A stretch of DNA of 59,947 nucleotides, from NCBI GenBank assembly GCA_000004985.1, contig GG738937.1. The stretch is one strand, 5' to 3'. Source of the DNA: Naegleria gruberi. Its lineage: Eukaryota. A program made the translations under genes and the position numbers. Below, piece after piece: positions 929-42,754 of the stretch. The stretch's first letter is position 1. The number at the start of each line of letters is the position of its first letter. The notes under the pieces were generated by a model that was given only the letters and a program-made list of their open reading frames with translations, was not told the DNA's origin and searched no databases.

Positions 929-1049
929 AAAGACTACAGCACCACATGTTCCCAAGTTGTCTCCAACCTCAGTACTGATGTGGCTCGACGATGCTTAACT
1001 TCTCAAATCGGACGGGATGAGGTGCGTTCATCGTGATATGGTCGTAGCC
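929..1049 (-). rRNA. 5S ribosomal RNA, full-length copy A (about 121 nt)
   Basis: The reverse complement reads GGCTACGACCATATCACGATGAACGCACCTCATCCCGTCCGATTTGAGAAGTTAAGCATCGTCGAGCCACATCAGTACTGAGGTTGGAGACAACTTGGGAACATGTGGTGCTGTAGTCTTT. It carries the universal 5S blocks CCCGTCCGAT, GAAGTTAAGC, GTACTGAGGTTGGAGAC and GGTGCTGTAG. The 5' end GGCTACGA pairs with the 3' end CTGTAGTC to form helix I. A T-run follows the 3' end. Confidence 0.85.
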
Positions 1050-1080
1050 ATTCAATCCCTTAATCTTTCACTCTTCAATT
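1050..1080 (-). promoter_or_regulatory. Conserved 5S upstream element shared by copies A and B
   Basis: The 30 bp immediately 5' of the 5S start (plus strand ttcaatcccttaatctttcactcttcaa) are nearly identical to 13002-13029 upstream of copy B. Flanks diverge beyond that point. The element is absent upstream of copy C. Confidence 0.3.
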
Positions 1081-2607
1081 AATAATTTGAATGACACCAG
1101 ATTCACTTTTCAACAATAAATTTAGGCAAATAAATCAGCGGATGCAAATTGAAATAGTTCCATATCTTTCTCACTTAATGTCATGAATATTCCTTATTTG
1201 ATCTCATTTTAGTGNNNNNNNNNNNNNNNNNNNNNNNNNNNNNNNNNNNNNNNNNNNNNNNNNNNNNNNNNNNNNNNNNNNNNNNNNNNNNNNNNNNNNN
1301 NNNNNNNNNNNNNNNNNNNNNNNNNNNNNNNNNNNNNNNNNNNNNNNNNNNNNNNNNNNNNNNNNNNNNNNNNNNNNNNNNNNNNNNNNNNNNNNNNNNN
1401 NNNNNNNNNNNNNNNNNNNNNNNNNNNNNNNNNNNNNNNNNNNNNNNNNNNNNNNNNNNNNNNNNNNNNNNNNNNNNNNNNNNNNNNNNNNNNNNNNNNN
1501 NNNNNNNNNNNNNNNNNNNNNNNNNNNNNNNNNNNNNNNNNNNNNNNNNNNNNNNNNNNNNNNNNNNNNNNNNNNNNNNNNNNNNNNNNNNNNNNNNNNN
1601 NNNNNNNNNNNNNNNNNNNNNNNNNNNNNNNNNNNNNNNNNNNNNNNNNNNNNNNNNNNNNNNNNNNNNNNNNNNNNNNNNNNNNNNNNNNNNNNNNNNN
1701 NNNNNNNNNNNNNNNNNNNNNNNNNNNNNNNNNNNNNNNNNNNNNNNNNNNNNNNNNNNNNNNNNNNNNNNNNNNNNNNNNNNNNNNNNNNNNNNNNNNN
1801 NNNNNNNNNNNNNNNNNNNNNNNNNNNNNNNNNNNNNNNNNNNNNNNNNNNNNNNNNNNNNNNNNNNNNNNNNNNNNNNNNNNNNNNNNNNNNNNNNNNN
1901 NNNNNNNNNNNNNNNNNNNNNNNNNNNNNNNNNNNNNNNNNNNNNNNNNNNNNNNNNNNNNNNNNNNNNNNNNNNNNNNNNNNNNNNNNNNNNNNNNNNN
2001 NNNNNNNNNNNNNNNNNNNNNNNNNNNNNNNNNNNNNNNNNNNNNNNNNNNNNNNNNNNNNNNNNNNNNNNNNNNNNNNNNNNNNNNNNNNNNNNNNNNN
2101 NNNNNNNNNNNNNNNNNNNNNNNNNNNNNNNNNNNNNNNNNNNNNNNNNNNNNNNNNNNNNNNNNNNNNNNNNNNNNNNNNNNNNNNNNNNNNNNNNNNN
2201 NNNNNNNNNNNNNNNNNNNNNNNNNNNNNNNNNNNNNNNNNNNNNNNNNNNNNNNNNNNNNNNNNNNNNNNNNNNNNNNNNNNNNNNNNNNNNNNNNNNN
2301 NNNNNNNNNNNNNNNNNNNNNNNNNNNNNNNNNNNNNNNNNNNNNNNNNNNNNNNNNNNNNNNNNNNNNNNNNNNNNNNNNNNNNNNNNNNNNNNNNNNN
2401 NNNNNNNNNNNNNNNNNNNNNNNNNNNNNNNNNNNNNNNNNNNNNNNNNNNNNNNNNNNNNNNNNNNNNNNNNNNNNNNNNNNNNNNNNNNNNNNNNNNN
2501 NNNNNNNNNNNNNNNNNNNNNNNNNNNNNNNNNNNNNNNNNNNNNNNNNNNNNNNNNNNNNNNNNNNNNNNNNNNNNNNNNNNNNNNNNNNNNNNNNNNN
2601 NNNNNNN

Positions 2608-2758
2608 CTTCAATTTTGTATACTTGATCACAATTCGAATTGATGAGACGAAACCTTGCTCTTTCCCTTGCAGATAAATTTAATAAAACATTAGAAACCA
2701 CTTCCGGTAAATTAAAAACAGAATAAATCTGCTTCTCTCCATCATCCTCTAATGACAT
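2608..2758 (-). CDS. F-box-like protein, N-terminal part; the rest is in the gap
   Basis: ATG at 2758. Translation MSLEDDGEKQIYSVFNLPEVVSNVLLNLSARERARFRLINSNCDQVYKIE shows the LPxE..L..L..R.i F-box pattern. The ORF stays open into the N-run. Confidence 0.45.
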
Positions 2759-2835
2759 TTTTTTATCCAAATTGTGACCAAGAATACAAAACACAAATAT
2801 TCGAAACTAAACTATTTATTCTTTGCATCATTGAT

Positions 2836-3234: not shown

Positions 3235-3846
3235 CTTTTTATGATTGATTGGTTTTTGTTTTTTTTTGTTGTGAAATTTTGTGAGATTTTGCAGCAGTTT
3301 TTATTCGAAAGTTGGATGGACACGAGAATGGCGCAGTGGAAAGTTCACCAGAGCTGCATATTGTAATGGATAGAATGTTGCAGAACAAGGACAAACGCTG
3401 GAACTATCGTTGTCCATGACACTTCAATCTCATACCTTGATGTAAGGTTTTGGACAATTGACAGAATAAATTTGGATATGATTGGCCGCAAATTAGATAA
3501 ATGGTAGGTATGTCACTCACTTTTGTAAATTGTATTATACTGTTGTAATTGTACTACAATTATTTGGACACATGTCAGAAAATCGTAGTGGGTGCCATCA
3601 TTACAATGAAACTGACTCTTCTCTTATTTGACATATGGTTTGTTCAGCAACACCTCTTCACATAAATTTATTTCAATCAGTTCAACTGAAATATCTCTAG
3701 GAATATAAAATTGAACATTGAATATGACCGTAATCCACACATCAAAATACGATAAAACCTGAAAATGCAGATTAGATTGGTGGATGCTTTTCCACACAAT
3801 TTCAGGATCCAACAAGGAGTTTCAACCGGAGTTCACAATAAAAAAA

Positions 3847-4437
3847 ATGTCAGCATCAGATACTTCCCTGCATCGTGCCAACAGCAACAACAAAGTCACA
3901 CTAAACGTTGCCATTTGTCAATGCGATATAAAATTCAAACAAATAGACATTAACAAGGAACACATTTCACACATGCTTTCTCCACTCGATTCGAAATTAA
4001 TTGATTTTCTCGTCTTTCCGGAAATGACACTCTCTGGCTATGTTTTCAAAGATAGGGAGGATATCTTTCCATTCTGTGAGAGATCTGGTCCTGGTGGAGA
4101 GTATTTNNNNNNNNNNNNNNNNNNNNNNNNNNNNNNNNNNNNNNNNNNNNNNNNNNAGGAAATTGGATCTGATGTATTGGTATTCATGTGTAATTGGTTT
4201 TCAACTGATTGTCTCGAGTATTGGTTGGATAGATTACAACCCATGATTTCTACCAAAGAGCAATTTCCATATTTTGTGGCTTGTAATCGAATTGGAAATG
4301 AATGTGGAATTGATTTTTGTGGAATGAGTTGTGTTTATAATNTGAGTCATGAAATGCAACCAAGTAATGCTTTGGTAACTAGTTTACCACAATCAGAGGA
4401 AGCTGTCAAGCTTGTTAGCATTGCCTTGAATTTGTAA
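3847..4437 (+). CDS. Carbon-nitrogen hydrolase family protein, Nta1-like amidase
   Basis: ATG at 3847. LNVAICQCDIKFKQIDINKEHISHML...IDFLVFPEMTLSGYVFKDREDIFPFCE matches the N-terminal signature of the nitrilase/CN-hydrolase superfamily (Q...N / FPE..L.GY). A 50-nt internal N-run (4107-4156) and one N at 4342 interrupt it. Confidence 0.55.
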   Translation: MSASDTSLHRANSNNKVTLNVAICQCDIKFKQIDINKEHISHMLSPLDSKLIDFLVFPEMTLSGYVFKDREDIFPFCERSGPGGEYXXXXXXXXXXXXXXXXXXEIGSDVLVFMCNWFSTDCLEYWLDRLQPMISTKEQFPYFVACNRIGNECGIDFCGMSCVYNXSHEMQPSNALVTSLPQSEEAVKLVSIALNL

Positions 4438-4504
4438 TCTCAATAGAGATGAAATAAATTAGAAATAAATAAATTCATGATGAATACTGTTATTTCCGAA
4501 AAAA

Positions 4505-5533: not shown

Positions 5534-7770
5534 TCCTTTACAAAATAAAAGAGCGGAAGCAAATGATTATTAAGGAAGAAGAGCATTGATTTTGGATTTG
5601 TATTGTTTCGATAGATTGAAGAATTTGTCAATTCAATTAATGGATCAGTTTTCAGTCGTTGGAGTTGGTGTATGCATACTATGTTTCAGAAGGATTTATT
5701 CTATCATTCTCAGTTGCCATTTCGTTTGAGAGAAATGAAACTTGTTGACTTGTGTGAACTCCTCACCAGAAGATATCCATTTAATACTTGAAGGAAACGG
5801 TATGAATCCTCAGCATTTACGATTGTAGTATTGTTGTCATTGTGATTTTAAAAGGAGAAAGAAAAATGAAACTTTCTAACAAATTGATGCAAGAAATTGA
5901 TTCTTTGATTGAAANNNNNNNNNNNNNNNNNNNNNNNNNNNNNNNNNNNNNNNNNNNNNNNNNNNNNNNNNNNNNNNNNNNNNNNNNNNNNNNNNNNNNN
6001 NNNNNNNNNNNNNNNNNNNNNNNNNNNNNNNNNNNNNNNNNNNNNNNNNNNNNNNNNNNNNNNNNNNNNNNNNNNNNNNNNNNNNNNNNNNNNNNNNNNN
6101 NNNNNNNNNNNNNNNNNNNNNNNNNNNNNNNNNNNNNNNNNNNNNNNNNNNNNNNNNNNNNNNNNNNNNNNNNNNNNNNNNNNNNNNNNNNNNNNNNNNN
6201 NNNNNNNNNNNNNNNNNNNNNNNNNNNNNNNNNNNNNNNNNNNNNNNNNNNNNNNNNNNNNNNNNNNNNNNNNNNNNNNNNNNNNNNNNNNNNNNNNNNN
6301 NNNNNNNNNNNNNNNNNNNNNNNNNNNNNNNNNNNNNNNNNNNNNNNNNNNNNNNNNNNNNNNNNNNNNNNNNNNNNNNNNNNNNNNNNNNNNNNNNNNN
6401 NNNNNNNNNNNNNNNNNNNNNNNNNNNNNNNNNNNNNNNNNNNNNNNNNNNNNNNNNNNNNNNNNNNNNNNNNNNNNNNNNNNNNNNNNNNNNNNNNNNN
6501 NNNNNNNNNNNNNNNNNNNNNNNNNNNNNNNNNNNNNNNNNNNNNNNNNNNNNNNNNNNNNNNNNNNNNNNNNNNNNNNNNNNNNNNNNNNNNNNNNNNN
6601 NNNNNNNNNNNNNNNNNNNNNNNNNNNNNNNNNNNNNNNNNNNNNNNNNNNNNNNNNNNNNNNNNNNNNNNNNNNNNNNNNNNNNNNNNNNNNNNNNNNN
6701 NNNNNNNNNNNNNNNNNNNNNNNNNNNNNNNNNNNNNNNNNNNNNNNNNNNNNNNNNNNNNNNNNNNNNNNNNNNNNNNNNNNNNNNNNNNNNNNNNNNN
6801 NNNNNNNNNNNNNNNNNNNNNNNNNNNNNNNNNNNNNNNNNNNNNNNNNNNNNNNNNNNNNNNNNNNNNNNNNNNNNNNNNNNNNNNNNNNNNNNNNNNN
6901 NNNNNNNNNNNNNNNNNNNNNNNNNNNNNNNNNNNNNNNNNNNNNNNNNNNNNNNNNNNNNNNNNNNNNNNNNNNNNNNNNNNNNNNNNNNNNNNNNNNN
7001 NNNNNNNNNNNNNNNNNNNNNNNNNNNNNNNNNNNNNNNNNNNNNNNNNNNNNNNNNNNNNNNNNNNNNNNNNNNNNNNNNNNNNNNNNNNNNNNNNNNN
7101 NNNNNNNNNNNNNNNNNNNNNNNNNNNNNNNNNNNNNNNNNNNNNNNNNNNNNNNNNNNNNNNNNNNNNNNNNNNNNNNNNNNNNNNNNNNNNNNNNNNN
7201 NNNNNNNNNNNNNNNNNNNNNNNNNNNNNNNNNNNNNNNNNNNNNNNNNNNNNNNNNNNNNNNNNNNNNNNNNNNNNNNNNNNNNNNNNNNNNNNNNNNN
7301 NNNNNNNNNNNNNNNNNNNNNNNNNNNNNNNNNNNNNNNNNNNNNNNNNNNNNNNNNNNNNNNNNNNNNNNNNNNNNNNNNNNNNNNNNNNNNNNNNNNN
7401 NNNNNNNNNNNNNNNNNNNNNNNNNNNNNNNNNNNNNNNNNNNNNNNNNNNNNNNNNNNNNNNNNNNNNNNNNNNNNNNNNNNNNNNNNNNNNNNNNNNN
7501 NNNNNNNNNNNNNNNNNNNNNNNNNNNNNNNNNNNNNNNNNNNNNNNNNNNNNNNNNNNNNNNNNNNNNNNNNNNNNNNNNNNNNNNNNNNNNNNNNNNN
7601 NNNNNNNNNNNNNNNNNNNNNNNNNNNNNNNNNNNNNNNNNNNNNNNNNNNNNNNNNNNNNNNNNNNNNNNNNNNNNNNNNNNNNNNNNNNNNNNNNNNN
7701 NNNNNNNNNNNNNNNNNNNNNNNNNNNNNNNNNNNNNNNNNNNNNNNNNNNNNNNNNNNNNNNNNNNNNN

Positions 7771-7852
7771 GCTCATAATTCTTGCTGTCAGCACAAGCAG
7801 TTAAAATAATAGCCATCGTTGTAGAGTCGGGTGAAATATTTAGATGTTGCAT
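7771..7852 (-). pseudogene. Continuation of the PPR-like repeat ORF in a shifted frame (MQHLNISPDSTTMAIILTACADSKNYE...), running into the gap
   Basis: Same repeat peptide as the upstream ORF but in the +1 frame. Open to the gap edge. See the frameshift finding. Confidence 0.4.
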
Positions 7853-8700
7853 TTCAGCAAGTATTTCTATTGCTCCATTTAAATCACCTTTTCCAATATA
7901 GGATTGAATTAAACAGTTGTGATGATGTGGTATCTAATCTATCTTTTGAAACACTCTCAAATAATTCAATGGCCTTATCAAATTTTTCACATTTGTTATA
8001 GAAATTAATCATTGAGGTTATCGAATGATTATTTGATGTCTTGTTCTCTCCAATTATATTTAACACCTTCAATCCTTGTTCATAATTCTTGCTGTCAGCA
8101 CAAGCAGTTAAAATAATTGTCAATGTGGCCGAGTCGGGTGAAATATTTAGATGTTGCATTTCAGCTAGTATCTCTATTGCTCCATTTAAATCACCTTTTC
8201 CAATATAGGATTGAATTACACAATTATATGATGTGGTATCTACTCTATCTTTTGTAACGCTCTCAAATAATTCAATGGCCTTATCAAATTTTTCACATTT
8301 GTTATAGAAATTAATCATTGCATTCAACATCCTAATAGTGATGTGCTTGATTTTGTTCTTAAGCGAAAGTACTTTCAACCCTTGTTCGTAATTCTTACTG
8401 TCAGCACAAGCAGTTAAAATAATTGTAAATGTGGCCGAGTCGGGTGAAATATTTTGCTGTTGCATTTCAGCAAGCATCTCTATTGCTCTATTTAAATCAC
8501 TTTTTCCAATATAGGATTGAATTAAACAATTATATGAAGTTGTATCCAATCCATCACTGCTAACGTTTCTAGTAATTTCAATTGCCTTATCATAGTCTTC
8601 ACATTTGTTATAAAAATTCACCATTGTGGTTAATAGCACTTTGTTGGTAGTTTTGGAATGTTCAATCATTGAGCAAATCATTCTACTTTCTTTTTGTTTG
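7771..8700. repeat. Tandem repeat of about 306-308 bp encoding a three-helix-hairpin PPR-like module (about 102 aa)
   Basis: The string (c/t)ataattcttgctgtcagcacaagcagttaaaataat recurs at about 7774, 8081 and 8387. Units are more than 90 percent identical. The array abuts the 5915-7770 gap and very likely continues into it. Confidence 0.8.
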
Positions 8701-9251
8701 TTTTTCTTTAAAGAGAAAGTCAATGAGGAAATAAACAGATTATCAAAAATTTTGATTTTTTGAGCATTCATTTCATGTAATAATGTCATCCCCTCTTCAA
8801 AATTATATTTAAACAAACACTGTGCATAGTAATTGTAGGCGTATAAACTGACTTGTTTTCTTTCAAGTAAAACAGAAAATATATGTTTGGCAATATCCAA
8901 TTCAAAATCATTCGGATAACTTGAGAGAACTTTTAAGATTTGATCCAATCTAAAACTCTTCAGAGAAGCAAGTGATGAATTTCCAAGTTTTCTAACAAGA
9001 GTTACAACCTCATCATAGCCTTCTTCTTGCACTAATGTAGAAATGGCAATATCAATGGTTCTAATAGTGGCAGAGCCTTCATCAAAATGATGAATAATAT
9101 TTTTCAATTCATCAATATATTTCCTTCTTTCCACTTCCGATCGTTTATGCTTAGAGCACAAAGTAATCATAAGGGTTGCAAGACTCATTGATTTTGTGTT
9201 CGTATTCGCATACAGACTTGCGCATTCTTCAAAGGTTAAATGTGGTTTCAT
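7884..9251 (-). CDS. Pentatricopeptide (PPR)-like helical-repeat protein
   Basis: First in-frame ATG at 9251; a TAA lies upstream in frame at 9363-9365. Repeated units such as SYNCLIQSYIGKSDLNRAIEMLAEMQQQNISPDSATFTIILTACADSKNYEQGLKVL fit the PPR consensus (t.YN.lI..y.k.g....A..l...M...g..Pd..T..iil.ac). The ORF ends DTTSSQLFNSILYWKR where the repeat frame is lost. Confidence 0.65.
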   Translation of the reverse strand: MKPHLTFEECASLYANTNTKSMSLATLMITLCSKHKRSEVERRKYIDELKNIIHHFDEGSATIRTIDIAISTLVQEEGYDEVVTLVRKLGNSSLASLKSFRLDQILKVLSSYPNDFELDIAKHIFSVLLERKQVSLYAYNYYAQCLFKYNFEEGMTLLHEMNAQKIKIFDNLFISSLTFSLKKNKQKESRMICSMIEHSKTTNKVLLTTMVNFYNKCEDYDKAIEITRNVSSDGLDTTSYNCLIQSYIGKSDLNRAIEMLAEMQQQNISPDSATFTIILTACADSKNYEQGLKVLSLKNKIKHITIRMLNAMINFYNKCEKFDKAIELFESVTKDRVDTTSYNCVIQSYIGKGDLNGAIEILAEMQHLNISPDSATLTIILTACADSKNYEQGLKVLNIIGENKTSNNHSITSMINFYNKCEKFDKAIELFESVSKDRLDTTSSQLFNSILYWKR

Positions 9252-9279
9252 TATTTCTCTGAACACTTTTTCTGCCGAA

Positions 9280-12282: not shown

Positions 12283-12908
12283 TCTCCATTAAACTCAAAA
12301 TTTTGTAAACCTAGGCATTCATTGTAAATAAATCAAAATGTAAATATTCAATAAAGCACACAGTTGAGTTTTTTTGACCCCTTATTTCGTTGAACTTTTG
12401 TTCAATACACGTCCTACTTAAATTTCAATGTAATTTATCAACTCTGTGTTTACTTCATGTTCAACTATCTCAGAGAAGTTAAATCATACAATAACAAACA
12501 ACGACCATAATTCAGTTCTCAAAAACCATACATCTTGAAAGGCTTTTAAGATTTGTTCGAATTTCCACTCTTTGGTTTCTTCATACTTACCTTGAAGGAC
12601 ATTTCAGTGATCATGCAGACTGAAATGTGAATCTGGAAACTCTCCTCCTTGCACTCAGAGGATGAGAAGCCAGAATTTGGTCAATAATCAAAGTGGTTGT
12701 TGCCCTCCTTCTCAATTTTTTCCTGTGAGGATTCATCTGGTATGATTTCTCGCTCTGTTAAATAATAGAAATTTTGTGTGTGTTGGAATTTTGCTGCGGT
12801 GAAGATCCAATGCCAACTGAAACCAATACAAGGCAAATTATAGGTTTGCTGAAGCTACATCAAAATTCCAAAAGCTCAAGATTGTGAGCAAGTCTGTGGT
12901 AAAAGATA

Positions 12909-13001
12909 AAAAGACTACAGCACCACAGGTTCCTGGCTCGACGATGCTTAACTTCTCAAATCGGACGGGATGAGGTGCATTCATCGTGATATGGCCGTAG
13001 C
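12909..13001 (-). pseudogene. 5S rRNA variant (copy B) with a 28-nt internal deletion
   Basis: Its termini and central region match copy A, but the 28 nt caagttgtctccaacctcagtactgatg are missing. That removes most of the helix IV/V arm. Plus-strand 12931-12937 reads ggttcct followed directly by tggctcgacg. It shares the 30-bp upstream and about 20-bp downstream flanks with copy A. A T-run follows the 3' end. Confidence 0.7.
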
Positions 13002-13139
13002 CATTCACTTCCTTAATCTTTCACTCTTCAACAATATGAAGTAAATCTATCTTTAGAATAACACAAACATAGCACGGCGGGTACAATCAATAAGTTAACT
13101 AGGCACTTTACAATTTATTCATCAATTTCATACAAATAT

Positions 13140-13601: not shown

Positions 13602-13662
13602 TTTTTTATTCGATTCAAAGTTAATTATATCTGCAAGTGCAAGTTCAAAAAAACAGATGGTA

Positions 13663-31500: not shown

Positions 31501-34500
31501 NNNNNNNNNNNNNNNNNNNNNNNNNNNNNNNNNNNNNNNNNNNNNNNNNNNNNNNNNNNNNNNNNNNNNNNNNNNNNNNNNNNNNNNNNNNNNNNNNNNN
31601 NNNNNNNNNNNNNNNNNNNNNNNNNNNNNNNNNNNNNNNNNNNNNNNNNNNNNNNNNNNNNNNNNNNNNNNNNNNNNNNNNNNNNNNNNNNNNNNNNNNN
31701 NNNNNNNNNNNNNNNNNNNNNNNNNNNNNNNNNNNNNNNNNNNNNNNNNNNNNNNNNNNNNNNNNNNNNNNNNNNNNNNNNNNNNNNNNNNNNNNNNNNN
31801 NNNNNNNNNNNNNNNNNNNNNNNNNNNNNNNNNNNNNNNNNNNNNNNNNNNNNNNNNNNNNNNNNNNNNNNNNNNNNNNNNNNNNNNNNNNNNNNNNNNN
31901 NNNNNNNNNNNNNNNNNNNNNNNNNNNNNNNNNNNNNNNNNNNNNNNNNNNNNNNNNNNNNNNNNNNNNNNNNNNNNNNNNNNNNNNNNNNNNNNNNNNN
32001 NNNNNNNNNNNNNNNNNNNNNNNNNNNNNNNNNNNNNNNNNNNNNNNNNNNNNNNNNNNNNNNNNNNNNNNNNNNNNNNNNNNNNNNNNNNNNNNNNNNN
32101 NNNNNNNNNNNNNNNNNNNNNNNNNNNNNNNNNNNNNNNNNNNNNNNNNNNNNNNNNNNNNNNNNNNNNNNNNNNNNNNNNNNNNNNNNNNNNNNNNNNN
32201 NNNNNNNNNNNNNNNNNNNNNNNNNNNNNNNNNNNNNNNNNNNNNNNNNNNNNNNNNNNNNNNNNNNNNNNNNNNNNNNNNNNNNNNNNNNNNNNNNNNN
32301 NNNNNNNNNNNNNNNNNNNNNNNNNNNNNNNNNNNNNNNNNNNNNNNNNNNNNNNNNNNNNNNNNNNNNNNNNNNNNNNNNNNNNNNNNNNNNNNNNNNN
32401 NNNNNNNNNNNNNNNNNNNNNNNNNNNNNNNNNNNNNNNNNNNNNNNNNNNNNNNNNNNNNNNNNNNNNNNNNNNNNNNNNNNNNNNNNNNNNNNNNNNN
32501 NNNNNNNNNNNNNNNNNNNNNNNNNNNNNNNNNNNNNNNNNNNNNNNNNNNNNNNNNNNNNNNNNNNNNNNNNNNNNNNNNNNNNNNNNNNNNNNNNNNN
32601 NNNNNNNNNNNNNNNNNNNNNNNNNNNNNNNNNNNNNNNNNNNNNNNNNNNNNNNNNNNNNNNNNNNNNNNNNNNNNNNNNNNNNNNNNNNNNNNNNNNN
32701 NNNNNNNNNNNNNNNNNNNNNNNNNNNNNNNNNNNNNNNNNNNNNNNNNNNNNNNNNNNNNNNNNNNNNNNNNNNNNNNNNNNNNNNNNNNNNNNNNNNN
32801 NNNNNNNNNNNNNNNNNNNNNNNNNNNNNNNNNNNNNNNNNNNNNNNNNNNNNNNNNNNNNNNNNNNNNNNNNNNNNNNNNNNNNNNNNNNNNNNNNNNN
32901 NNNNNNNNNNNNNNNNNNNNNNNNNNNNNNNNNNNNNNNNNNNNNNNNNNNNNNNNNNNNNNNNNNNNNNNNNNNNNNNNNNNNNNNNNNNNNNNNNNNN
33001 NNNNNNNNNNNNNNNNNNNNNNNNNNNNNNNNNNNNNNNNNNNNNNNNNNNNNNNNNNNNNNNNNNNNNNNNNNNNNNNNNNNNNNNNNNNNNNNNNNNN
33101 NNNNNNNNNNNNNNNNNNNNNNNNNNNNNNNNNNNNNNNNNNNNNNNNNNNNNNNNNNNNNNNNNNNNNNNNNNNNNNNNNNNNNNNNNNNNNNNNNNNN
33201 NNNNNNNNNNNNNNNNNNNNNNNNNNNNNNNNNNNNNNNNNNNNNNNNNNNNNNNNNNNNNNNNNNNNNNNNNNNNNNNNNNNNNNNNNNNNNNNNNNNN
33301 NNNNNNNNNNNNNNNNNNNNNNNNNNNNNNNNNNNNNNNNNNNNNNNNNNNNNNNNNNNNNNNNNNNNNNNNNNNNNNNNNNNNNNNNNNNNNNNNNNNN
33401 NNNNNNNNNNNNNNNNNNNNNNNNNNNNNNNNNNNNNNNNNNNNNNNNNNNNNNNNNNNNNNNNNNNNNNNNNNNNNNNNNNNNNNNNNNNNNNNNNNNN
33501 NNNNNNNNNNNNNNNNNNNNNNNNNNNNNNNNNNNNNNNNNNNNNNNNNNNNNNNNNNNNNNNNNNNNNNNNNNNNNNNNNNNNNNNNNNNNNNNNNNNN
33601 NNNNNNNNNNNNNNNNNNNNNNNNNNNNNNNNNNNNNNNNNNNNNNNNNNNNNNNNNNNNNNNNNNNNNNNNNNNNNNNNNNNNNNNNNNNNNNNNNNNN
33701 NNNNNNNNNNNNNNNNNNNNNNNNNNNNNNNNNNNNNNNNNNNNNNNNNNNNNNNNNNNNNNNNNNNNNNNNNNNNNNNNNNNNNNNNNNNNNNNNNNNN
33801 NNNNNNNNNNNNNNNNNNNNNNNNNNNNNNNNNNNNNNNNNNNNNNNNNNNNNNNNNNNNNNNNNNNNNNNNNNNNNNNNNNNNNNNNNNNNNNNNNNNN
33901 NNNNNNNNNNNNNNNNNNNNNNNNNNNNNNNNNNNNNNNNNNNNNNNNNNNNNNNNNNNNNNNNNNNNNNNNNNNNNNNNNNNNNNNNNNNNNNNNNNNN
34001 NNNNNNNNNNNNNNNNNNNNNNNNNNNNNNNNNNNNNNNNNNNNNNNNNNNNNNNNNNNNNNNNNNNNNNNNNNNNNNNNNNNNNNNNNNNNNNNNNNNN
34101 NNNNNNNNNNNNNNNNNNNNNNNNNNNNNNNNNNNNNNNNNNNNNNNNNNNNNNNNNNNNNNNNNNNNNNNNNNNNNNNNNNNNNNNNNNNNNNNNNNNN
34201 NNNNNNNNNNNNNNNNNNNNNNNNNNNNNNNNNNNNNNNNNNNNNNNNNNNNNNNNNNNNNNNNNNNNNNNNNNNNNNNNNNNNNNNNNNNNNNNNNNNN
34301 NNNNNNNNNNNNNNNNNNNNNNNNNNNNNNNNNNNNNNNNNNNNNNNNNNNNNNNNNNNNNNNNNNNNNNNNNNNNNNNNNNNNNNNNNNNNNNNNNNNN
34401 NNNNNNNNNNNNNNNNNNNNNNNNNNNNNNNNNNNNNNNNNNNNNNNNNNNNNNNNNNNNNNNNNNNNNNNNNNNNNNNNNNNNNNNNNNNNNNNNNNNN

Positions 34501-37500
34501 NNNNNNNNNNNNNNNNNNNNNNNNNNNNNNNNNNNNNNNNNNNNNNNNNNNNNNNNNNNNNNNNNNNNNNNNNNNNNNNNNNNNNNNNNNNNNNNNNNNN
34601 NNNNNNNNNNNNNNNNNNNNNNNNNNNNNNNNNNNNNNNNNNNNNNNNNNNNNNNNNNNNNNNNNNNNNNNNNNNNNNNNNNNNNNNNNNNNNNNNNNNN
34701 NNNNNNNNNNNNNNNNNNNNNNNNNNNNNNNNNNNNNNNNNNNNNNNNNNNNNNNNNNNNNNNNNNNNNNNNNNNNNNNNNNNNNNNNNNNNNNNNNNNN
34801 NNNNNNNNNNNNNNNNNNNNNNNNNNNNNNNNNNNNNNNNNNNNNNNNNNNNNNNNNNNNNNNNNNNNNNNNNNNNNNNNNNNNNNNNNNNNNNNNNNNN
34901 NNNNNNNNNNNNNNNNNNNNNNNNNNNNNNNNNNNNNNNNNNNNNNNNNNNNNNNNNNNNNNNNNNNNNNNNNNNNNNNNNNNNNNNNNNNNNNNNNNNN
35001 NNNNNNNNNNNNNNNNNNNNNNNNNNNNNNNNNNNNNNNNNNNNNNNNNNNNNNNNNNNNNNNNNNNNNNNNNNNNNNNNNNNNNNNNNNNNNNNNNNNN
35101 NNNNNNNNNNNNNNNNNNNNNNNNNNNNNNNNNNNNNNNNNNNNNNNNNNNNNNNNNNNNNNNNNNNNNNNNNNNNNNNNNNNNNNNNNNNNNNNNNNNN
35201 NNNNNNNNNNNNNNNNNNNNNNNNNNNNNNNNNNNNNNNNNNNNNNNNNNNNNNNNNNNNNNNNNNNNNNNNNNNNNNNNNNNNNNNNNNNNNNNNNNNN
35301 NNNNNNNNNNNNNNNNNNNNNNNNNNNNNNNNNNNNNNNNNNNNNNNNNNNNNNNNNNNNNNNNNNNNNNNNNNNNNNNNNNNNNNNNNNNNNNNNNNNN
35401 NNNNNNNNNNNNNNNNNNNNNNNNNNNNNNNNNNNNNNNNNNNNNNNNNNNNNNNNNNNNNNNNNNNNNNNNNNNNNNNNNNNNNNNNNNNNNNNNNNNN
35501 NNNNNNNNNNNNNNNNNNNNNNNNNNNNNNNNNNNNNNNNNNNNNNNNNNNNNNNNNNNNNNNNNNNNNNNNNNNNNNNNNNNNNNNNNNNNNNNNNNNN
35601 NNNNNNNNNNNNNNNNNNNNNNNNNNNNNNNNNNNNNNNNNNNNNNNNNNNNNNNNNNNNNNNNNNNNNNNNNNNNNNNNNNNNNNNNNNNNNNNNNNNN
35701 NNNNNNNNNNNNNNNNNNNNNNNNNNNNNNNNNNNNNNNNNNNNNNNNNNNNNNNNNNNNNNNNNNNNNNNNNNNNNNNNNNNNNNNNNNNNNNNNNNNN
35801 NNNNNNNNNNNNNNNNNNNNNNNNNNNNNNNNNNNNNNNNNNNNNNNNNNNNNNNNNNNNNNNNNNNNNNNNNNNNNNNNNNNNNNNNNNNNNNNNNNNN
35901 NNNNNNNNNNNNNNNNNNNNNNNNNNNNNNNNNNNNNNNNNNNNNNNNNNNNNNNNNNNNNNNNNNNNNNNNNNNNNNNNNNNNNNNNNNNNNNNNNNNN
36001 NNNNNNNNNNNNNNNNNNNNNNNNNNNNNNNNNNNNNNNNNNNNNNNNNNNNNNNNNNNNNNNNNNNNNNNNNNNNNNNNNNNNNNNNNNNNNNNNNNNN
36101 NNNNNNNNNNNNNNNNNNNNNNNNNNNNNNNNNNNNNNNNNNNNNNNNNNNNNNNNNNNNNNNNNNNNNNNNNNNNNNNNNNNNNNNNNNNNNNNNNNNN
36201 NNNNNNNNNNNNNNNNNNNNNNNNNNNNNNNNNNNNNNNNNNNNNNNNNNNNNNNNNNNNNNNNNNNNNNNNNNNNNNNNNNNNNNNNNNNNNNNNNNNN
36301 NNNNNNNNNNNNNNNNNNNNNNNNNNNNNNNNNNNNNNNNNNNNNNNNNNNNNNNNNNNNNNNNNNNNNNNNNNNNNNNNNNNNNNNNNNNNNNNNNNNN
36401 NNNNNNNNNNNNNNNNNNNNNNNNNNNNNNNNNNNNNNNNNNNNNNNNNNNNNNNNNNNNNNNNNNNNNNNNNNNNNNNNNNNNNNNNNNNNNNNNNNNN
36501 NNNNNNNNNNNNNNNNNNNNNNNNNNNNNNNNNNNNNNNNNNNNNNNNNNNNNNNNNNNNNNNNNNNNNNNNNNNNNNNNNNNNNNNNNNNNNNNNNNNN
36601 NNNNNNNNNNNNNNNNNNNNNNNNNNNNNNNNNNNNNNNNNNNNNNNNNNNNNNNNNNNNNNNNNNNNNNNNNNNNNNNNNNNNNNNNNNNNNNNNNNNN
36701 NNNNNNNNNNNNNNNNNNNNNNNNNNNNNNNNNNNNNNNNNNNNNNNNNNNNNNNNNNNNNNNNNNNNNNNNNNNNNNNNNNNNNNNNNNNNNNNNNNNN
36801 NNNNNNNNNNNNNNNNNNNNNNNNNNNNNNNNNNNNNNNNNNNNNNNNNNNNNNNNNNNNNNNNNNNNNNNNNNNNNNNNNNNNNNNNNNNNNNNNNNNN
36901 NNNNNNNNNNNNNNNNNNNNNNNNNNNNNNNNNNNNNNNNNNNNNNNNNNNNNNNNNNNNNNNNNNNNNNNNNNNNNNNNNNNNNNNNNNNNNNNNNNNN
37001 NNNNNNNNNNNNNNNNNNNNNNNNNNNNNNNNNNNNNNNNNNNNNNNNNNNNNNNNNNNNNNNNNNNNNNNNNNNNNNNNNNNNNNNNNNNNNNNNNNNN
37101 NNNNNNNNNNNNNNNNNNNNNNNNNNNNNNNNNNNNNNNNNNNNNNNNNNNNNNNNNNNNNNNNNNNNNNNNNNNNNNNNNNNNNNNNNNNNNNNNNNNN
37201 NNNNNNNNNNNNNNNNNNNNNNNNNNNNNNNNNNNNNNNNNNNNNNNNNNNNNNNNNNNNNNNNNNNNNNNNNNNNNNNNNNNNNNNNNNNNNNNNNNNN
37301 NNNNNNNNNNNNNNNNNNNNNNNNNNNNNNNNNNNNNNNNNNNNNNNNNNNNNNNNNNNNNNNNNNNNNNNNNNNNNNNNNNNNNNNNNNNNNNNNNNNN
37401 NNNNNNNNNNNNNNNNNNNNNNNNNNNNNNNNNNNNNNNNNNNNNNNNNNNNNNNNNNNNNNNNNNNNNNNNNNNNNNNNNNNNNNNNNNNNNNNNNNNN

Positions 37501-39655
37501 NNNNNNNNNNNNNNNNNNNNNNNNNNNNNNNNNNNNNNNNNNNNNNNNNNNNNNNNNNNNNNNNNNNNNNNNNNNNNNNNNNNNNNNNNNNNNNNNNNNN
37601 NNNNNNNNNNNNNNNNNNNNNNNNNNNNNNNNNNNNNNNNNNNNNNNNNNNNNNNNNNNNNNNNNNNNNNNNNNNNNNNNNNNNNNNNNNNNNNNNNNNN
37701 NNNNNNNNNNNNNNNNNNNNNNNNNNNNNNNNNNNNNNNNNNNNNNNNNNNNNNNNNNNNNNNNNNNNNNNNNNNNNNNNNNNNNNNNNNNNNNNNNNNN
37801 NNNNNNNNNNNNNNNNNNNNNNNNNNNNNNNNNNNNNNNNNNNNNNNNNNNNNNNNNNNNNNNNNNNNNNNNNNNNNNNNNNNNNNNNNNNNNNNNNNNN
37901 NNNNNNNNNNNNNNNNNNNNNNNNNNNNNNNNNNNNNNNNNNNNNNNNNNNNNNNNNNNNNNNNNNNNNNNNNNNNNNNNNNNNNNNNNNNNNNNNNNNN
38001 NNNNNNNNNNNNNNNNNNNNNNNNNNNNNNNNNNNNNNNNNNNNNNNNNNNNNNNNNNNNNNNNNNNNNNNNNNNNNNNNNNNNNNNNNNNNNNNNNNNN
38101 NNNNNNNNNNNNNNNNNNNNNNNNNNNNNNNNNNNNNNNNNNNNNNNNNNNNNNNNNNNNNNNNNNNNNNNNNNNNNNNNNNNNNNNNNNNNNNNNNNNN
38201 NNNNNNNNNNNNNNNNNNNNNNNNNNNNNNNNNNNNNNNNNNNNNNNNNNNNNNNNNNNNNNNNNNNNNNNNNNNNNNNNNNNNNNNNNNNNNNNNNNNN
38301 NNNNNNNNNNNNNNNNNNNNNNNNNNNNNNNNNNNNNNNNNNNNNNNNNNNNNNNNNNNNNNNNNNNNNNNNNNNNNNNNNNNNNNNNNNNNNNNNNNNN
38401 NNNNNNNNNNNNNNNNNNNNNNNNNNNNNNNNNNNNNNNNNNNNNNNNNNNNNNNNNNNNNNNNNNNNNNNNNNNNNNNNNNNNNNNNNNNNNNNNNNNN
38501 NNNNNNNNNNNNNNNNNNNNNNNNNNNNNNNNNNNNNNNNNNNNNNNNNNNNNNNNNNNNNNNNNNNNNNNNNNNNNNNNNNNNNNNNNNNNNNNNNNNN
38601 NNNNNNNNNNNNNNNNNNNNNNNNNNNNNNNNNNNNNNNNNNNNNNNNNNNNNNNNNNNNNNNNNNNNNNNNNNNNNNNNNNNNNNNNNNNNNNNNNNNN
38701 NNNNNNNNNNNNNNNNNNNNNNNNNNNNNNNNNNNNNNNNNNNNNNNNNNNNNNNNNNNNNNNNNNNNNNNNNNNNNNNNNNNNNNNNNNNNNNNNNNNN
38801 NNNNNNNNNNNNNNNNNNNNNNNNNNNNNNNNNNNNNNNNNNNNNNNNNNNNNNNNNNNNNNNNNNNNNNNNNNNNNNNNNNNNNNNNNNNNNNNNNNNN
38901 NNNNNNNNNNNNNNNNNNNNNNNNNNNNNNNNNNNNNNNNNNNNNNNNNNNNNNNNNNNNNNNNNNNNNNNNNNNNNNNNNNNNNNNNNNNNNNNNNNNN
39001 NNNNNNNNNNNNNNNNNNNNNNNNNNNNNNNNNNNNNNNNNNNNNNNNNNNNNNNNNNNNNNNNNNNNNNNNNNNNNNNNNNNNNNNNNNNNNNNNNNNN
39101 NNNNNNNNNNNNNNNNNNNNNNNNNNNNNNNNNNNNNNNNNNNNNNNNNNNNNNNNNNNNNNNNNNNNNNNNNNNNNNNNNNNNNNNNNNNNNNNNNNNN
39201 NNNNNNNNNNNNNNNNNNNNNNNNNNNNNNNNNNNNNNNNNNNNNNNNNNNNNNNNNNNNNNNNNNNNNNNNNNNNNNNNNNNNNNNNNNNNNNNNNNNN
39301 NNNNNNNNNNNNNNNNNNNNNNNNNNNNNNNNNNNNNNNNNNNNNNNNNNNNNNNNNNNNNNNNNNNNNNNNNNNNNNNNNNNNNNNNNNNNNNNNNNNN
39401 NNNNNNNNNNNNNNNNNNNNNNNNNNNNNNNNNNNNNNNNNNNNNNNNNNNNNNNNNNNNNNNNNNNNNNNNNNNNNNNNNNNNNNNNNNNNNNNNNNNN
39501 NNNNNNNNNNNNNNNNNNNNNNNNNNNNNNNNNNNNNNNNNNNNNNNNNNNNNNNNNNNNNNNNNNNNNNNNNNNNNNNNNNNNNNNNNNNNNNNNNNNN
39601 NNNNNNNNNNNNNNNNNNNNNNNNNNNNNNNNNNNNNNNNNNNNNNNNNNNNNNN

Positions 39656-41105
39656 TCTAGTATTCAAGATTTTGTTGGCAGTTTGGATGGCAATCTTCAG
39701 GCCAGCATTCCCGACTTTAGACCTGACGATATTACCATTGTTACTTTTAAAAATAGTTACAAATGCATTAGGGTTATCAGAGAAGATTCGTCGGATATTT
39801 ATCAAAGTCACACCAGCCACAAGGACTTTATAGCTCTCATTTCTCAGATGAAGATTGCCCTCTCTCATGCCATGAGGCAGCTTATCAAGAAAGATATTGA
39901 GGAATGGCACAATCAAGTATTAGTTTTAGGTATCACAACAGACAGACAGGCATCTCATTTGTATTCTTTGCACTGCTCATCAATCAGCTTGAATGGTAAA
40001 TCAATAACTCTTTCAAATTTTACTCTTTCATTCATTGGATCCTATAAGCACGAAGTTGTTATGGATCGAATTCATCTCATTGCTAGAATTATGACAGCTC
40101 TCATTTATCCAAATAATGAAGAGGTTACCGAATATTTAACTACACAACGCCAAATAAGTATGATGTCATCCAACCAAAAGAATGAAATTTCATTTCCTAA
40201 ATTAGATGCAGACAATCAATTGATAGAATACGACAAAAATTTTGACCCAATCCAAACCCGCTCAACTCTCAAAAAGGGGAAAATTAATGGCGTTGAGTAT
40301 TTTATTAAATACCAACCAAATATTAACATTAATGAGGATTCTATAAGATATAACTTCCTAACTCTGTATGCTCCAATGATTGACGGGAATTTTTCACTTT
40401 CATTAGCTGGTAAATGTATGACTAGGTTCTTTAATAAGGGAAAGAAGATTAATATTATGGCTTTTTTCATTGATTTGCTTGTTCAGGTCTGTTTCTTACA
40501 AAAACAGCAAATTACACATAATGATATCAAACCAGAAAATATTGTGTTGTATGATAAGCATTGGTTTATGATAGATTTTGAAATAGCAACGAAATTTTCG
40601 CTTGAAGATGGAATATGTGTAGATAAGAACTTGAATCCACTGACATCAAAGAATTTTTCAGAAGGTAAGTTTACAAACTACTCAACCTATATTTTACACA
40701 TCCCTTAATGTTGCAGGATACAGATCTCCTGAGAGTTGAGAAAAATTTAATTTCCCCAAAGAGCGATATTTATTCATTGGGAATGGTTCTGTTAGAAATT
40801 ATTCATGAGGAGAGGTTGGAATTTTTAGAAGATGAAGAGACTGTTGACCTTCAAATGATGACGAAAGTATCATTCTTTCCATTATCAAAAACAAGATACT
40901 GGTCAAGTCTATGGACAAGAGAATGGATGTTTTTAGTTTACTCGATCTTTTATTTATTCCTTCAGAGAATAATGCTACTCCAAAGGTTGTTCATTTAAAG
41001 CAAAAGGCAGAAATTGTTAAAACATACTTTCAAGATAAGGACTACTTTTTGAGGAAGCACAGTCCAAAACGTGAAGATAGTGTCAGTAGAACCCTAGCCT
41101 TTTGA
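39656..41105 (+). CDS. TKL-type protein kinase, 3' part. The 5' end is in the 16.8-kb gap. One intron at 40665-40723 (59 bp, GTAAGT...ACAG). One frame break near 40861-40868
   Basis: Catalytic loop HNDIKPENIVL, then DFE in place of DFG. After the splice comes FSEDLLRVEKNLISPKSDIYSLGMVLLEI, which aligns to the TKL motif [26 protein letters not shown]. Only the acceptor at 40723 keeps the frame; the nearer TTGCAG at 40716 gives an immediate stop. The C-lobe continues in another frame (ESIILSIIKNKILVKSMDKRMDVFSLLDLLFIPS..., stop at 41103-41105). Adding one A to the aaa run at 40864-40866 joins the two frames as MMTKSIILSIIKNK. Confidence 0.6.
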
Positions 41106-42634
41106 ATTGAGGCTTTGCTCATAATTTAATTTGGAAAGTATACTTTAAATTACACGNNNNNNNNNNNNNNNNNNNNNNNNNNNNNNNNNNNNNNNNNNNN
41201 NNNNNNNNNNNNNNNNNNNNNNNNNNNNNNNNNNNNNNNNNNNNNNNNNNNNNNNNNNNNNNNNNNNNNNNNNNNNNNNNNNNNNNNNNNNNNNNNNNNN
41301 NNNNNNNNNNNNNNNNNNNNNNNNNNNNNNNNNNNNNNNNNNNNNNNNNNNNNNNNNNNNNNNNNNNNNNNNNNNNNNNNNNNNNNNNNNNNNNNNNNNN
41401 NNNNNNNNNNNNNNNNNNNNNNNNNNNNNNNNNNNNNNNNNNNNNNNNNNNNNNNNNNNNNNNNNNNNNNNNNNNNNNNNNNNNNNNNNNNNNNNNNNNN
41501 NNNNNNNNNNNNNNNNNNNNNNNNNNNNNNNNNNNNNNNNNNNNNNNNNNNNNNNNNNNNNNNNNNNNNNNNNNNNNNNNNNNNNNNNNNNNNNNNNNNN
41601 NNNNNNNNNNNNNNNNNNNNNNNNNNNNNNNNNNNNNNNNNNNNNNNNNNNNNNNNNNNNNNNNNNNNNNNNNNNNNNNNNNNNNNNNNNNNNNNNNNNN
41701 NNNNNNNNNNNNNNNNNNNNNNNNNNNNNNNNNNNNNNNNNNNNNNNNNNNNNNNNNNNNNNNNNNNNNNNNNNNNNNNNNNNNNNNNNNNNNNNNNNNN
41801 NNNNNNNNNNNNNNNNNNNNNNNNNNNNNNNNNNNNNNNNNNNNNNNNNNNNNNNNNNNNNNNNNNNNNNNNNNNNNNNNNNNNNNNNNNNNNNNNNNNN
41901 NNNNNNNNNNNNNNNNNNNNNNNNNNNNNNNNNNNNNNNNNNNNNNNNNNNNNNNNNNNNNNNNNNNNNNNNNNNNNNNNNNNNNNNNNNNNNNNNNNNN
42001 NNNNNNNNNNNNNNNNNNNNNNNNNNNNNNNNNNNNNNNNNNNNNNNNNNNNNNNNNNNNNNNNNNNNNNNNNNNNNNNNNNNNNNNNNNNNNNNNNNNN
42101 NNNNNNNNNNNNNNNNNNNNNNNNNNNNNNNNNNNNNNNNNNNNNNNNNNNNNNNNNNNNNNNNNNNNNNNNNNNNNNNNNNNNNNNNNNNNNNNNNNNN
42201 NNNNNNNNNNNNNNNNNNNNNNNNNNNNNNNNNNNNNNNNNNNNNNNNNNNNNNNNNNNNNNNNNNNNNNNNNNNNNNNNNNNNNNNNNNNNNNNNNNNN
42301 NNNNNNNNNNNNNNNNNNNNNNNNNNNNNNNNNNNNNNNNNNNNNNNNNNNNNNNNNNNNNNNNNNNNNNNNNNNNNNNNNNNNNNNNNNNNNNNNNNNN
42401 NNNNNNNNNNNNNNNNNNNNNNNNNNNNNNNNNNNNNNNNNNNNNNNNNNNNNNNNNNNNNNNNNNNNNNNNNNNNNNNNNNNNNNNNNNNNNNNNNNNN
42501 NNNNNNNNNNNNNNNNNNNNNNNNNNNNNNAATGGATTGAAAGGAGAAACTATATATTCAAACTTGCAACATTTTCATGGACTTACCTCAGGATCACAGT
42601 GCTTGTTCATCAGAATATTTTTGAGGTTATGGAT

Positions 42635-42754
42635 GGCTACGGCCATATCACGATGAATGCACCTCATCCCGTCCGATTTGAGAAGTTAAGCATCGTCGAG
42701 CCACATCAGTACTGAGGTTGGAGACAACTTGGGAACCTGTGGTGCTGTAGTCTT
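42635..42754 (+). rRNA. 5S ribosomal RNA, full-length copy C
   Basis: GGCTACGGCCATATCACGATGAATGCACCTCATCCCGTCCGATTTGAGAAGTTAAGCATCGTCGAGCCACATCAGTACTGAGGTTGGAGACAACTTGGGAACCTGTGGTGCTGTAGTCTTT. It differs from copy A at about 4 positions. T-run terminator TCTTTT at 42751-42756, with further T-runs downstream. It starts 104 bp after the 41157-42530 gap. Confidence 0.85.

What the first reader, a model, noticed from the sequence alone, without database searches (positions are those of the whole stretch)
929..42754. 5S rRNA genes are dispersed as single copies rather than a tandem array
There are three 5S loci: 929-1049 on the minus strand, 12909-13001 on the minus strand, and 42635-42754 on the plus strand. 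Each sits alone between protein-coding genes and each ends in T-runs. The intact copies differ from each other at only about 4 positions, consistent with recent spread or homogenisation. Singleton, dispersed 5S organisation is lineage-restricted, so it is a useful marker for what kind of genome this is. It also means 5S copies will be scattered across scaffolds.
Basis: seen in the sequence. Interest (0 to 1): 0.5.

Follow-up and report, generated by a model that had tools for sequence, protein, structure and literature searches.

The report
Scattered 5S rRNA genes in Naegleria
The window is a draft scaffold of the amoeboflagellate Naegleria gruberi carrying two intact 5S ribosomal RNA genes and one broken copy at separate sites; the genes are real and scattered, but two of the three were already listed in a 2012 paper, so the finding is ordinary.

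Summary
Rfam RF00001 finds exactly three 5S loci: C at 42635-42753 (+, 105 bits), A at 931-1049 (-, 102 bits) and B at 12912-13002 (-, 70 bits).

A and C differ at 3 positions, not 4. B equals C except for a clean 28-nt deletion (nt 70-97). That deletion removes box C of the internal promoter and helix IV/loop E, so B is a pseudogene.

The window is Naegleria gruberi NEG-M scaffold_93. GenBank protein EFC36148.1 maps to it at 100%, and its contig length is 59,947 bp, the window length. A and C are already rows of Table S1 of PMC3369914, which lists 279 N. gruberi 5S loci.

From that table I computed 117 scaffolds, a median neighbour distance of 34 kb, a minimum of 462 bp, and no periodicity. 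The family is scattered with loose local clustering, although that paper's Table 1 calls it 'tandem'.

Corrections to the finding:
- 57% of the window is N, with gaps 165 nt and 104 nt upstream of A and C.
- B lies next to a U1 snRNA gene, not between two protein genes.
- Few differences do not show recent spread. Flanks are unrelated beyond a conserved 34-nt upstream block.

Scattered 5S genes are rare but occur in several unrelated lineages, so they are a weak taxonomic marker. Interest is low.

The parts
42635..42753 (+). 5S rRNA gene copy C. It is full length (119 nt) and has the same similarity score (0.75) and length as most entries in the published table.
   Evidence: RF00001 at 105.4 bits, model positions 1-120. 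Box A consensus matches at nt 50-64, and the best box C match is at nt 80-97 with 2 mismatches. It is the row scaffold_93:42638-42754 of Table S1 in PMC3369914.
42601..42634 (+). Conserved upstream block (-34 to -1) of copy C; a putative upstream promoter element.
   Evidence: 41-53% ungapped identity to the same block of A, B and environmental copy L005. Background is 28 +/- 8%, and the -70..-35 segment is at background.
42753..42771 (+). Pol III terminator of copy C: T4 at the 3' end of the gene, followed by two T5 runs.
   Evidence: Sequence read directly.
931..1049 (-). 5S rRNA gene copy A. It is full length and is a variant with 3 substitutions (G8A, T24C, C103A). G8A replaces the G8-C111 pair of helix I with an A-C mismatch.
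   Evidence: RF00001 at 101.8 bits, with one non-standard pair flagged in helix I. Differences are listed and the helix I pairing. It is the row scaffold_93:930-1046 of Table S1 in PMC3369914, with similarity 0.742 against 0.75 for most entries.
1050..1083 (-). Conserved upstream block of copy A.
   Evidence: 82% identical to the block of B and 44-47% to those of C and L005. The blastn A-B alignment runs 29 nt beyond the gene start.
926..931 (-). Pol III terminator of copy A (T6, including the last gene base).
   Evidence: Sequence read directly.
12912..13002 (-). 5S pseudogene copy B (91 nt). It is identical to copy C except for a deletion of nt 70-97, with no microhomology at the junction. 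The deletion removes all of box C, helix IV, loop D/E and part of helix V.
   Evidence: RF00001 at 69.9 bits, with 36 model positions replaced by 9. Exact prefix of 69 nt and suffix of 22 nt, overlap 0. Box C lies at nt 80-97. It is not listed in Table S1 of PMC3369914.
13003..13036 (-). Conserved upstream block of copy B.
   Evidence: 82% identical to the block of A and 53% to those of C and L005.
12908..12912 (-). T5 run at the 3' end of copy B.
   Evidence: Sequence read directly.

Best explanation
The window is scaffold_93 of the Naegleria gruberi NEG-M draft genome. It carries three members of that genome's scattered 5S rRNA gene family, which has about 280 loci.

Each intact copy (A and C) is a self-contained RNA polymerase III transcription unit of about 160 bp. 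The unit has a conserved 34-nt upstream block, an internal control region (box A at nt 50-64, box C at nt 80-97) and a T-run terminator directly at the 3' end. It sits in otherwise unrelated intergenic DNA.

The large rRNA genes of Naegleria lie on an extrachromosomal plasmid, so the 5S genes are unlinked to them.

The family most likely evolves by birth and death under strong purifying selection on the RNA. Copies arise occasionally, partly by local duplication: A and B are 12 kb apart on the same strand and have the most similar upstream blocks. Copies also die: B has lost nt 70-97, and with them box C, so it should be neither transcribed nor usable in a ribosome.

Shown: the genes, their anatomy, their unrelated flanks, the organism, and the genome-wide scatter. 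Inferred: promoter function of the upstream block, inactivity of B, and birth-and-death dynamics.
For: - Three RF00001 hits and no other rRNA family in the window.
- Box A and box C consensus matches at canonical positions; T runs at the 3' ends.
- Flanks are at background identity outside -34..-1, whereas all six pairwise comparisons of the upstream block are 41-82% identical against 28 +/- 8% background.
- Organism: EFC36148.1 (N. gruberi NAEGRDRAFT_76177), from a contig of 59,947 bp, maps to window 14435-15097 at 100% over 221 aa.
- Table S1 of PMC3369914 has matching rows for scaffold_93.
- Genome-wide scatter: 279 loci on 117 scaffolds, median neighbour distance 33.9 kb, minimum 462 bp, no period. 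There are 32 neighbour distances under 5 kb, against about 9 expected for random placement, which is loose clustering.
- Naegleria 18S-5.8S-28S genes are on an extrachromosomal plasmid (PMC12482156).
- Selection rather than recency: the 5S gene on L005 differs from C at 1 nt, while its neighbouring protein is 52-58% identical to named Naegleria and Willaertia orthologues.
- Positional turnover: the orthologous hydrolase loci of N. lovaniensis and W. magna and two further related contigs carry no 5S gene.
- All 13 metagenome contigs with a Naegleria-like 5S segment carry exactly one copy.
Against: - 57% of the window is N, and gaps lie 104-165 nt upstream of C and A. Further copies, or a short cluster, could be hidden.
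- Draft Sanger assemblies can leave out tandem arrays altogether, so the scattered copies need not be the only 5S genes, or the expressed ones.
- PMC3369914 itself tabulates the N. gruberi arrangement as 'tandem: Y', although its coordinates do not show this.
- The upstream block rests on only four sequences.
- B is 100% identical to C over its remaining 91 nt. That is unexpected for an old dead copy and hints at gene conversion or a very recent deletion.
- Expression was not tested.
Confidence: 0.8

Rival explanations
1. Concerted evolution. The scattered copies are kept alike by ectopic gene conversion between loci rather than, or in addition to, selection on each copy.
For: Pseudogene B is 100% identical to C over its remaining 91 nt, although it should be free to drift. 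B's upstream block resembles A (82%), while its gene body carries the C-type bases at positions 8, 24 and 103. That is a mosaic pattern. Most rows of the published table share one similarity value and one length.
Against: The mosaic is equally explained by three derived substitutions in A after an A/B duplication. A different Naegleria-clade organism has a 5S gene only 1 nt away from C, so selection alone gives this level of identity. No conversion tract boundary can be shown with three copies.
Confidence: 0.3
2. Recent burst of a mobile 5S-derived element, either a retroposed 5S transcript or a 5S-SINE, or a 5S gene carried inside a transposon.
For: High copy number (279) and scatter over 117 scaffolds. 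Copy positions are not conserved between related species.
Against: Copies end in the T-run terminator, with no A-rich or LINE-like tail. A conserved block lies upstream of the transcription start, which an RNA-mediated copy would not carry. Self-comparison of the window shows no longer repeat around the copies. Flanks have diverged to background.
Confidence: 0.05
3. Assembly artefact. The three loci are remnants of a collapsed or mis-scaffolded tandem array in a poor, gap-rich scaffold.
For: 57% of the window is N. Gaps lie close to A and C. Many tiny scaffolds in the published table carry a 5S gene.
Against: The 104-165 nt between the genes and the gaps, and the 900+ nt on the other side, are unrelated between copies. 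Gaps elsewhere in the window interrupt ordinary open reading frames, so they reflect low coverage rather than repeats. Gap-free metagenome contigs of related organisms show single 5S genes between protein genes, for example L008.
Confidence: 0.03

Closest known systems
N. gruberi 5S rRNA gene catalogue (Table S1 of PMC3369914, PLoS One 2012)
   Same: Same genome and same scaffold. Rows scaffold_93:930-1046 and scaffold_93:42638-42754 are copies A and C. That paper also reports an internal control region, an upstream TATA-like element and T-run terminators for these genes.
   Different: The truncated copy B is not in the table. The paper's Table 1 records 'tandem arrangement: Y' for N. gruberi, while its own coordinates show scattered loci.
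Scattered 5S genes of Neurospora crassa and other filamentous fungi, S. pombe and Acanthamoeba castellanii
   Same: Single Pol III units with unrelated flanks, unlinked to the large rDNA, with pseudogenes among them. They are interpreted as a birth-and-death multigene family (PMC1635290; PMC10462631).
   Different: A different eukaryotic supergroup (Heterolobosea, Discoba). The copy number of about 280 is higher than I recall for S. pombe or Neurospora (own knowledge, not checked here). Here the large rDNA is on an extrachromosomal plasmid. RIP, invoked for fungal pseudogenes, is not known in Naegleria; B died by deletion, not by transitions.
Tandem 5S rDNA arrays of animals, plants and trypanosomatids
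   Same: The same RNA, the same type 1 Pol III promoter logic (box A / box C) and the same T-run terminator.
   Different: No constant gene-plus-spacer unit and no periodic spacing.

Membership tests
5S rRNA (Rfam RF00001) | Covariance-model score above the curated gathering score (38 bits) | tested here: met
   105.4, 101.8 and 69.9 bits for C, A and B.
5S rRNA (Rfam RF00001) | Complete three-way-junction structure (helices I-V, loops A-E) over about 120 nt | tested here: met
   A and C align to model positions 1-120 with posterior probability about 1.0; A has one A-C mismatch in helix I. The feature is NOT met by B: helix IV, loops D/E and part of helix V (nt 70-97) are deleted. B is therefore filed as a pseudogene.
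Eukaryotic type 1 Pol III gene (5S-type promoter) | Internal control region with box A near +50-64 and box C near +80-97 | tested here: met
   The box A consensus quoted in PMC3369914 matches only at nt 50-64. The best box C match is at nt 80-97, with 2 mismatches of 18. B lacks box C entirely. Binding of TFIIIA was not tested.
Eukaryotic type 1 Pol III gene (5S-type promoter) | Run of at least 4 T at the 3' end as terminator | tested here: met
   T6 (A), T5 (B), and T4 plus two T5 runs (C).
Eukaryotic type 1 Pol III gene (5S-type promoter) | Transcription by Pol III and incorporation into the large ribosomal subunit | not testable with these tools
   No expression data were accessible.
Scattered (dispersed) 5S organisation | Each copy flanked by sequence unrelated to the flanks of other copies | tested here: met
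   Ungapped identity in -70..-35 and downstream is 14-38%, the same as background (28 +/- 8%). Only -34..-1 is conserved. Self-blast shows no longer shared unit.
Scattered (dispersed) 5S organisation | No head-to-tail periodic array at genome scale | tested here: met
   Computed from published coordinates of 279 loci: 117 scaffolds, minimum spacing 462 bp, median 33.9 kb, no regular period. Caveat: arrays that never assembled would be invisible.
Scattered (dispersed) 5S organisation | No further copies hidden in assembly gaps next to the genes | not testable with these tools
   34,048 N in the window, with gaps 104 and 165 nt from C and A. Other N. gruberi scaffolds and reads could not be fetched.
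Scattered (dispersed) 5S organisation | Not linked to the 18S-5.8S-28S unit | tested here: met
   No SSU, LSU or 5.8S hit in the window. Naegleria rDNA is on an extrachromosomal plasmid (PMC12482156).
Tandem 5S rDNA array | Repeated unit of gene plus spacer with constant period | tested here: not met
   Copies are 12 kb and 30 kb apart, in mixed orientation (-, -, +), with unrelated spacers.
5S-derived SINE / retroposed 5S pseudogene | 3' A-rich or LINE-derived tail, target-site duplications, and no conserved sequence upstream of +1 | tested here: not met
   The 3' ends are T runs, and a 34-nt block upstream of +1 is conserved. Target-site duplications were not searched for.

The most novel reading that the evidence does not exclude
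The unit that multiplies in Naegleria may be a discrete cassette of about 160-180 bp: the 34-nt upstream block, the gene and the terminator. It would be copied by a DNA-level mechanism that favours nearby sites. The observations behind this reading are the excess of published loci 1.5-5 kb apart, the A/B pair here, and the lack of positional conservation between Naegleria-clade species. The 34-nt block would then be a lineage-specific upstream Pol III promoter element needed because each copy lands in foreign DNA. If so, Naegleria, whose large rDNA is entirely extrachromosomal, would be a tractable system for studying how a scattered rRNA gene family spreads and stays uniform.
Probability: 0.12. 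Interest if true: 0.45.

Novelty: already known. Interest (0 to 1): 0.15.

Why it matters
The finding matters little beyond annotation.

- It fixes the identity of the window as N. gruberi NEG-M scaffold_93.
- It adds one unlisted 5S pseudogene (B) and one U1 snRNA gene that scores below the Rfam threshold.
- It shows that the one paper cataloguing these genes labels their arrangement 'tandem' while its own coordinates show scatter. Anyone compiling 5S organisation across eukaryotes should record Naegleria as scattered.
- It gives a practical caution: near-identity of 5S copies is not evidence of recent spread, because the RNA is almost invariant across Naegleria-clade organisms.

Tried and rejected
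- Fetching other N. gruberi scaffolds to align all copies and to test whether scaffold_93 is a second haplotype of a larger scaffold. The look-up of encoding contigs has no record for the window's SmD2 ORF, for P0001 or for P0040, so this could not be done.
- Looking for an allelic or duplicate region through copy spacing. Scaffold_37 has two loci 41,648 bp apart, against 41,708 bp for A-C. With about 50 pairs in the 30-50 kb range I estimate chance at about 0.3, which is not significant and is untestable here.
- Identifying the second group of metagenome contigs (VFQM/VFQO, 5S 26-30 nt different from Naegleria) through the FGGY kinase on L008. The best named hits are only about 40% identical (insects; Acrasis kona 38%), so the organism stays unknown.
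- Synteny test of the L005 5S-hydrolase pair. Orthologous loci in N. lovaniensis, W. magna and two related contigs have no 5S gene. Whether the upstream neighbour gene is conserved in L005 was inconclusive.
- tRNA scan of the window: none found, so there is no Pol III gene cluster apart from the 5S copies.
- A literature search for an explicit statement of 5S organisation in Naegleria found only PMC3369914. The genome paper (PubMed 20211133) is not held.
- A canonical TATA box upstream of the genes: C and L005 have TATA-like AT runs, but A and B do not at the same place. I therefore describe a conserved block rather than a TATA box.
Full report
**Observation.** A scan of the whole window against Rfam at curated thresholds returns three hits, all to 5S rRNA (RF00001), and nothing else.
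- Copy C: 42635-42753 (+), 105.4 bits.
- Copy A: 931-1049 (-), 101.8 bits.
- Copy B: 12912-13002 (-), 69.9 bits.

The E-values (4e-22 to 1e-12) exclude chance. A permissive scan adds only a U1 snRNA-like hit. A short-word blastn with copy C finds no further 5S fragment in the readable sequence.

A and C differ at three positions: G8A, T24C and C103A. G8A turns the G8-C111 pair of helix I into an A-C mismatch. B is identical to C except that nt 70-97 are missing, with no microhomology at the junction. All three copies are followed directly by T runs.

**State of the sequence.** 34,048 of the 59,947 bases are N, in 11 runs.
- One run (1215-2607) begins 165 nt upstream of A.
- Another run (41157-42530) ends 104 nt upstream of C.
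- A lies 930 nt from the scaffold end, and that stretch has no ORF longer than 105 codons.

Several gaps interrupt open reading frames that continue on the far side. They therefore look like coverage gaps in ordinary DNA rather than collapsed repeats. Still, 'each sits alone between protein-coding genes' is only half verifiable for A and C. It is wrong for B, whose downstream neighbour 160 nt away is a convergent U1 snRNA gene. That gene has the 5' end AUACUUACCU, U1-70K and U1A loop motifs and an Sm site. It scores 51.6 bits, below the Rfam cut-off of 69.5, with E 8e-12.

**Organism.** ORF 14147-15100 matches N. gruberi predicted proteins. The cluster mate EFC36148.1 (NAEGRDRAFT_76177) comes from a contig of 59,947 bp, exactly the window length. 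It maps to window 14435-15097 at 100% over all 221 residues.

Table S1 of PMC3369914 lists 279 putative 5S genes in the JGI N. gruberi assembly. It includes scaffold_93:930-1046 and scaffold_93:42638-42754. The window is therefore N. gruberi NEG-M scaffold_93, and copies A and C were catalogued in 2012. Copy B is not in that table.

**Genome-wide arrangement.** I transcribed the 279 published coordinates and computed spacings.
- The loci lie on 117 scaffolds; 57 scaffolds have a single copy.
- The 162 same-scaffold neighbour distances have a minimum of 462 bp and a median of 33.9 kb.
- Only one distance is under 1 kb, and the few local clusters have irregular spacings.

This is a scattered family, not a tandem array. 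It is loosely clustered: 22 distances are under 3 kb and 32 are under 5 kb, against about 6 and 9 expected for random placement in 41 Mb. The same paper's Table 1 nevertheless enters 'tandem arrangement: Y' for N. gruberi. Its own coordinates do not support that entry.

Independent support comes from a metagenome scan with a 30-mer of the gene. All 13 contigs found (1-6.8 kb, gap-free) carry exactly one 5S gene. On L008 the gene sits in a 400-nt spacer between two protein-coding genes.

**Anatomy and likely mechanism.**
- The box A consensus matches only at nt 50-64. The best box C match is at nt 80-97. Both are the canonical positions of a type 1 Pol III promoter.
- Upstream, the 34 nt before the gene are conserved. 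All six pairwise comparisons among A, B, C and the Naegleria-type environmental copy L005 give 41-82% ungapped identity, against 28 +/- 8% for random 34-mers of the window. The -70..-35 segment and the downstream flanks are at background.
- I infer that each copy is an autonomous unit of about 160 bp (upstream element, internal promoter, terminator) set in unrelated DNA.
- B has lost all of box C and the helix IV/loop E region. It should be transcriptionally dead and structurally useless, so I class it as a pseudogene. This is inferred, not tested.

**Recent spread or homogenisation?** Low divergence among the copies says little about how recent they are.
- The 5S gene on L005 differs from copy C at one nucleotide. 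The hydrolase gene next to it is only 58% and 52% identical to its N. lovaniensis and Willaertia magna orthologues, and it has no N. gruberi hit. The RNA is thus nearly invariant across clearly different Naegleria-clade organisms, as expected under purifying selection.
- The flanks of A, B and C have diverged to background, which argues against recent duplication.
- A and B are the possible exception. They are 12 kb apart on the same strand, with the most similar upstream blocks (82%). That fits the excess of closely spaced loci genome-wide and suggests local duplication as one source of new copies.
- Positions turn over between species. The orthologous hydrolase loci of N. lovaniensis (L014) and W. 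magna (L015) and two related contigs (L016, L017) contain no 5S gene.

Together this fits the birth-and-death model described for the scattered 5S genes of filamentous fungi (PMC10462631). Gene conversion cannot be excluded. B's perfect identity to C over 91 nt, in a copy that should be drifting, hints at conversion or at a very recent deletion.

**Marker value.** A review states that 5S genes are 'only rarely' linearly scattered and names Neurospora, S. pombe and Acanthamoeba (PMC1635290). These lineages are unrelated, however, so the trait narrows the field but does not identify a genome. The protein match did that. In Naegleria the large rRNA genes are on an extrachromosomal plasmid (PMC12482156), so chromosomal 5S genes are necessarily unlinked to them.

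**Verdict.** The feature is real, correctly located and correctly read as non-tandem. It is also ordinary and already catalogued. The new items are minor:
- one unlisted pseudogene (B);
- a U1 snRNA gene that scores below threshold;
- a conserved 34-nt upstream block, resting on four sequences;
- an inconsistency in the published description.

The main untested risk is that gaps or unassembled DNA hide additional or arrayed copies.

Noticed in passing
window 12583-12752 (+): A U1 spliceosomal snRNA gene with a perfect AUACUUACCU 5' end, GAUCAUGCAG and UUGCACU loop motifs and an AAUUUUU Sm site. It scores 51.6 bits, below Rfam's gathering score of 69.5, so a standard annotation run would miss it. 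It is convergent with 5S pseudogene B, 160 nt away.
   Followed up: partly
window, 11 N runs (1215-2607, 4107-4156, 4342, 5915-7770, 16162-19758, 22800-39655, 41157-42530, 43692-44683, 47037-49448, 50896-51415, 53857-58853): 57% of the scaffold is N. Several gaps fall inside open reading frames that continue on the other side (for example ORF 3784-4437 across the 50-N gap, the PPR gene into 5915-7770, and the NHL-repeat ORF into 47037-49448). They look like coverage gaps in coding DNA.
   Followed up: partly
window 14435-15097 (+): The DUF4116 protein encoded here (EFC36148.1) has a 93%-identical twin (EFC45715.1) on a 502,116-bp N. gruberi scaffold. Scaffold_93 may be a diverged second haplotype or a segmental duplicate of part of that scaffold.
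   Followed up: partly
PMC3369914, Table 1 versus Table S1: The paper records 'tandem arrangement: Y' for N. gruberi 5S genes. Its own 279 coordinates show scattered loci on 117 scaffolds, with a median spacing of 34 kb and an excess of pairs 1.5-5 kb apart.
   Followed up: yes
window 7773-8632 (-): The PPR-repeat gene (ORF 7884-9266, Pfam PPR_2 at 2.8e-35) contains internal tandem duplications with a period of about 306 nt and 83-86% identity, and it continues into the gap at 5915-7770.
   Followed up: no
window 51675-52351 (+): A Cys-rich, EGF-like ORF (51416-52916, motif CSTPVCDSKCTTC...) is built of repeats of about 126 nt at 67-81% identity.
   Followed up: no
window 46428-46454 and 46570-46596: A perfect 27-nt inverted repeat with arms 115 nt apart, spanning the start of ORF 46514-47032: the left arm lies just upstream and the right arm inside the ORF. 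Its function is unknown.
   Followed up: no
L001-L004, L006-L012 (VFQM/VFQO metagenome contigs): These contigs come from an unidentified eukaryote whose 5S gene shares the Naegleria loop C segment but differs at 26-30 of 119 positions. The 5S genes are single copies with unique flanks and a pyrimidine-rich TTTCTTC motif just upstream. The proteins are at most about 40% identical to anything named.
   Followed up: partly
L005 539-657 (-) and 823-1908 (+): An environmental Naegleria-clade contig has a 5S gene 165 nt upstream of, and divergent from, an alpha/beta-hydrolase gene. The 5S gene is absent from the orthologous loci of N. lovaniensis, Willaertia magna and two related contigs.
   Followed up: yes
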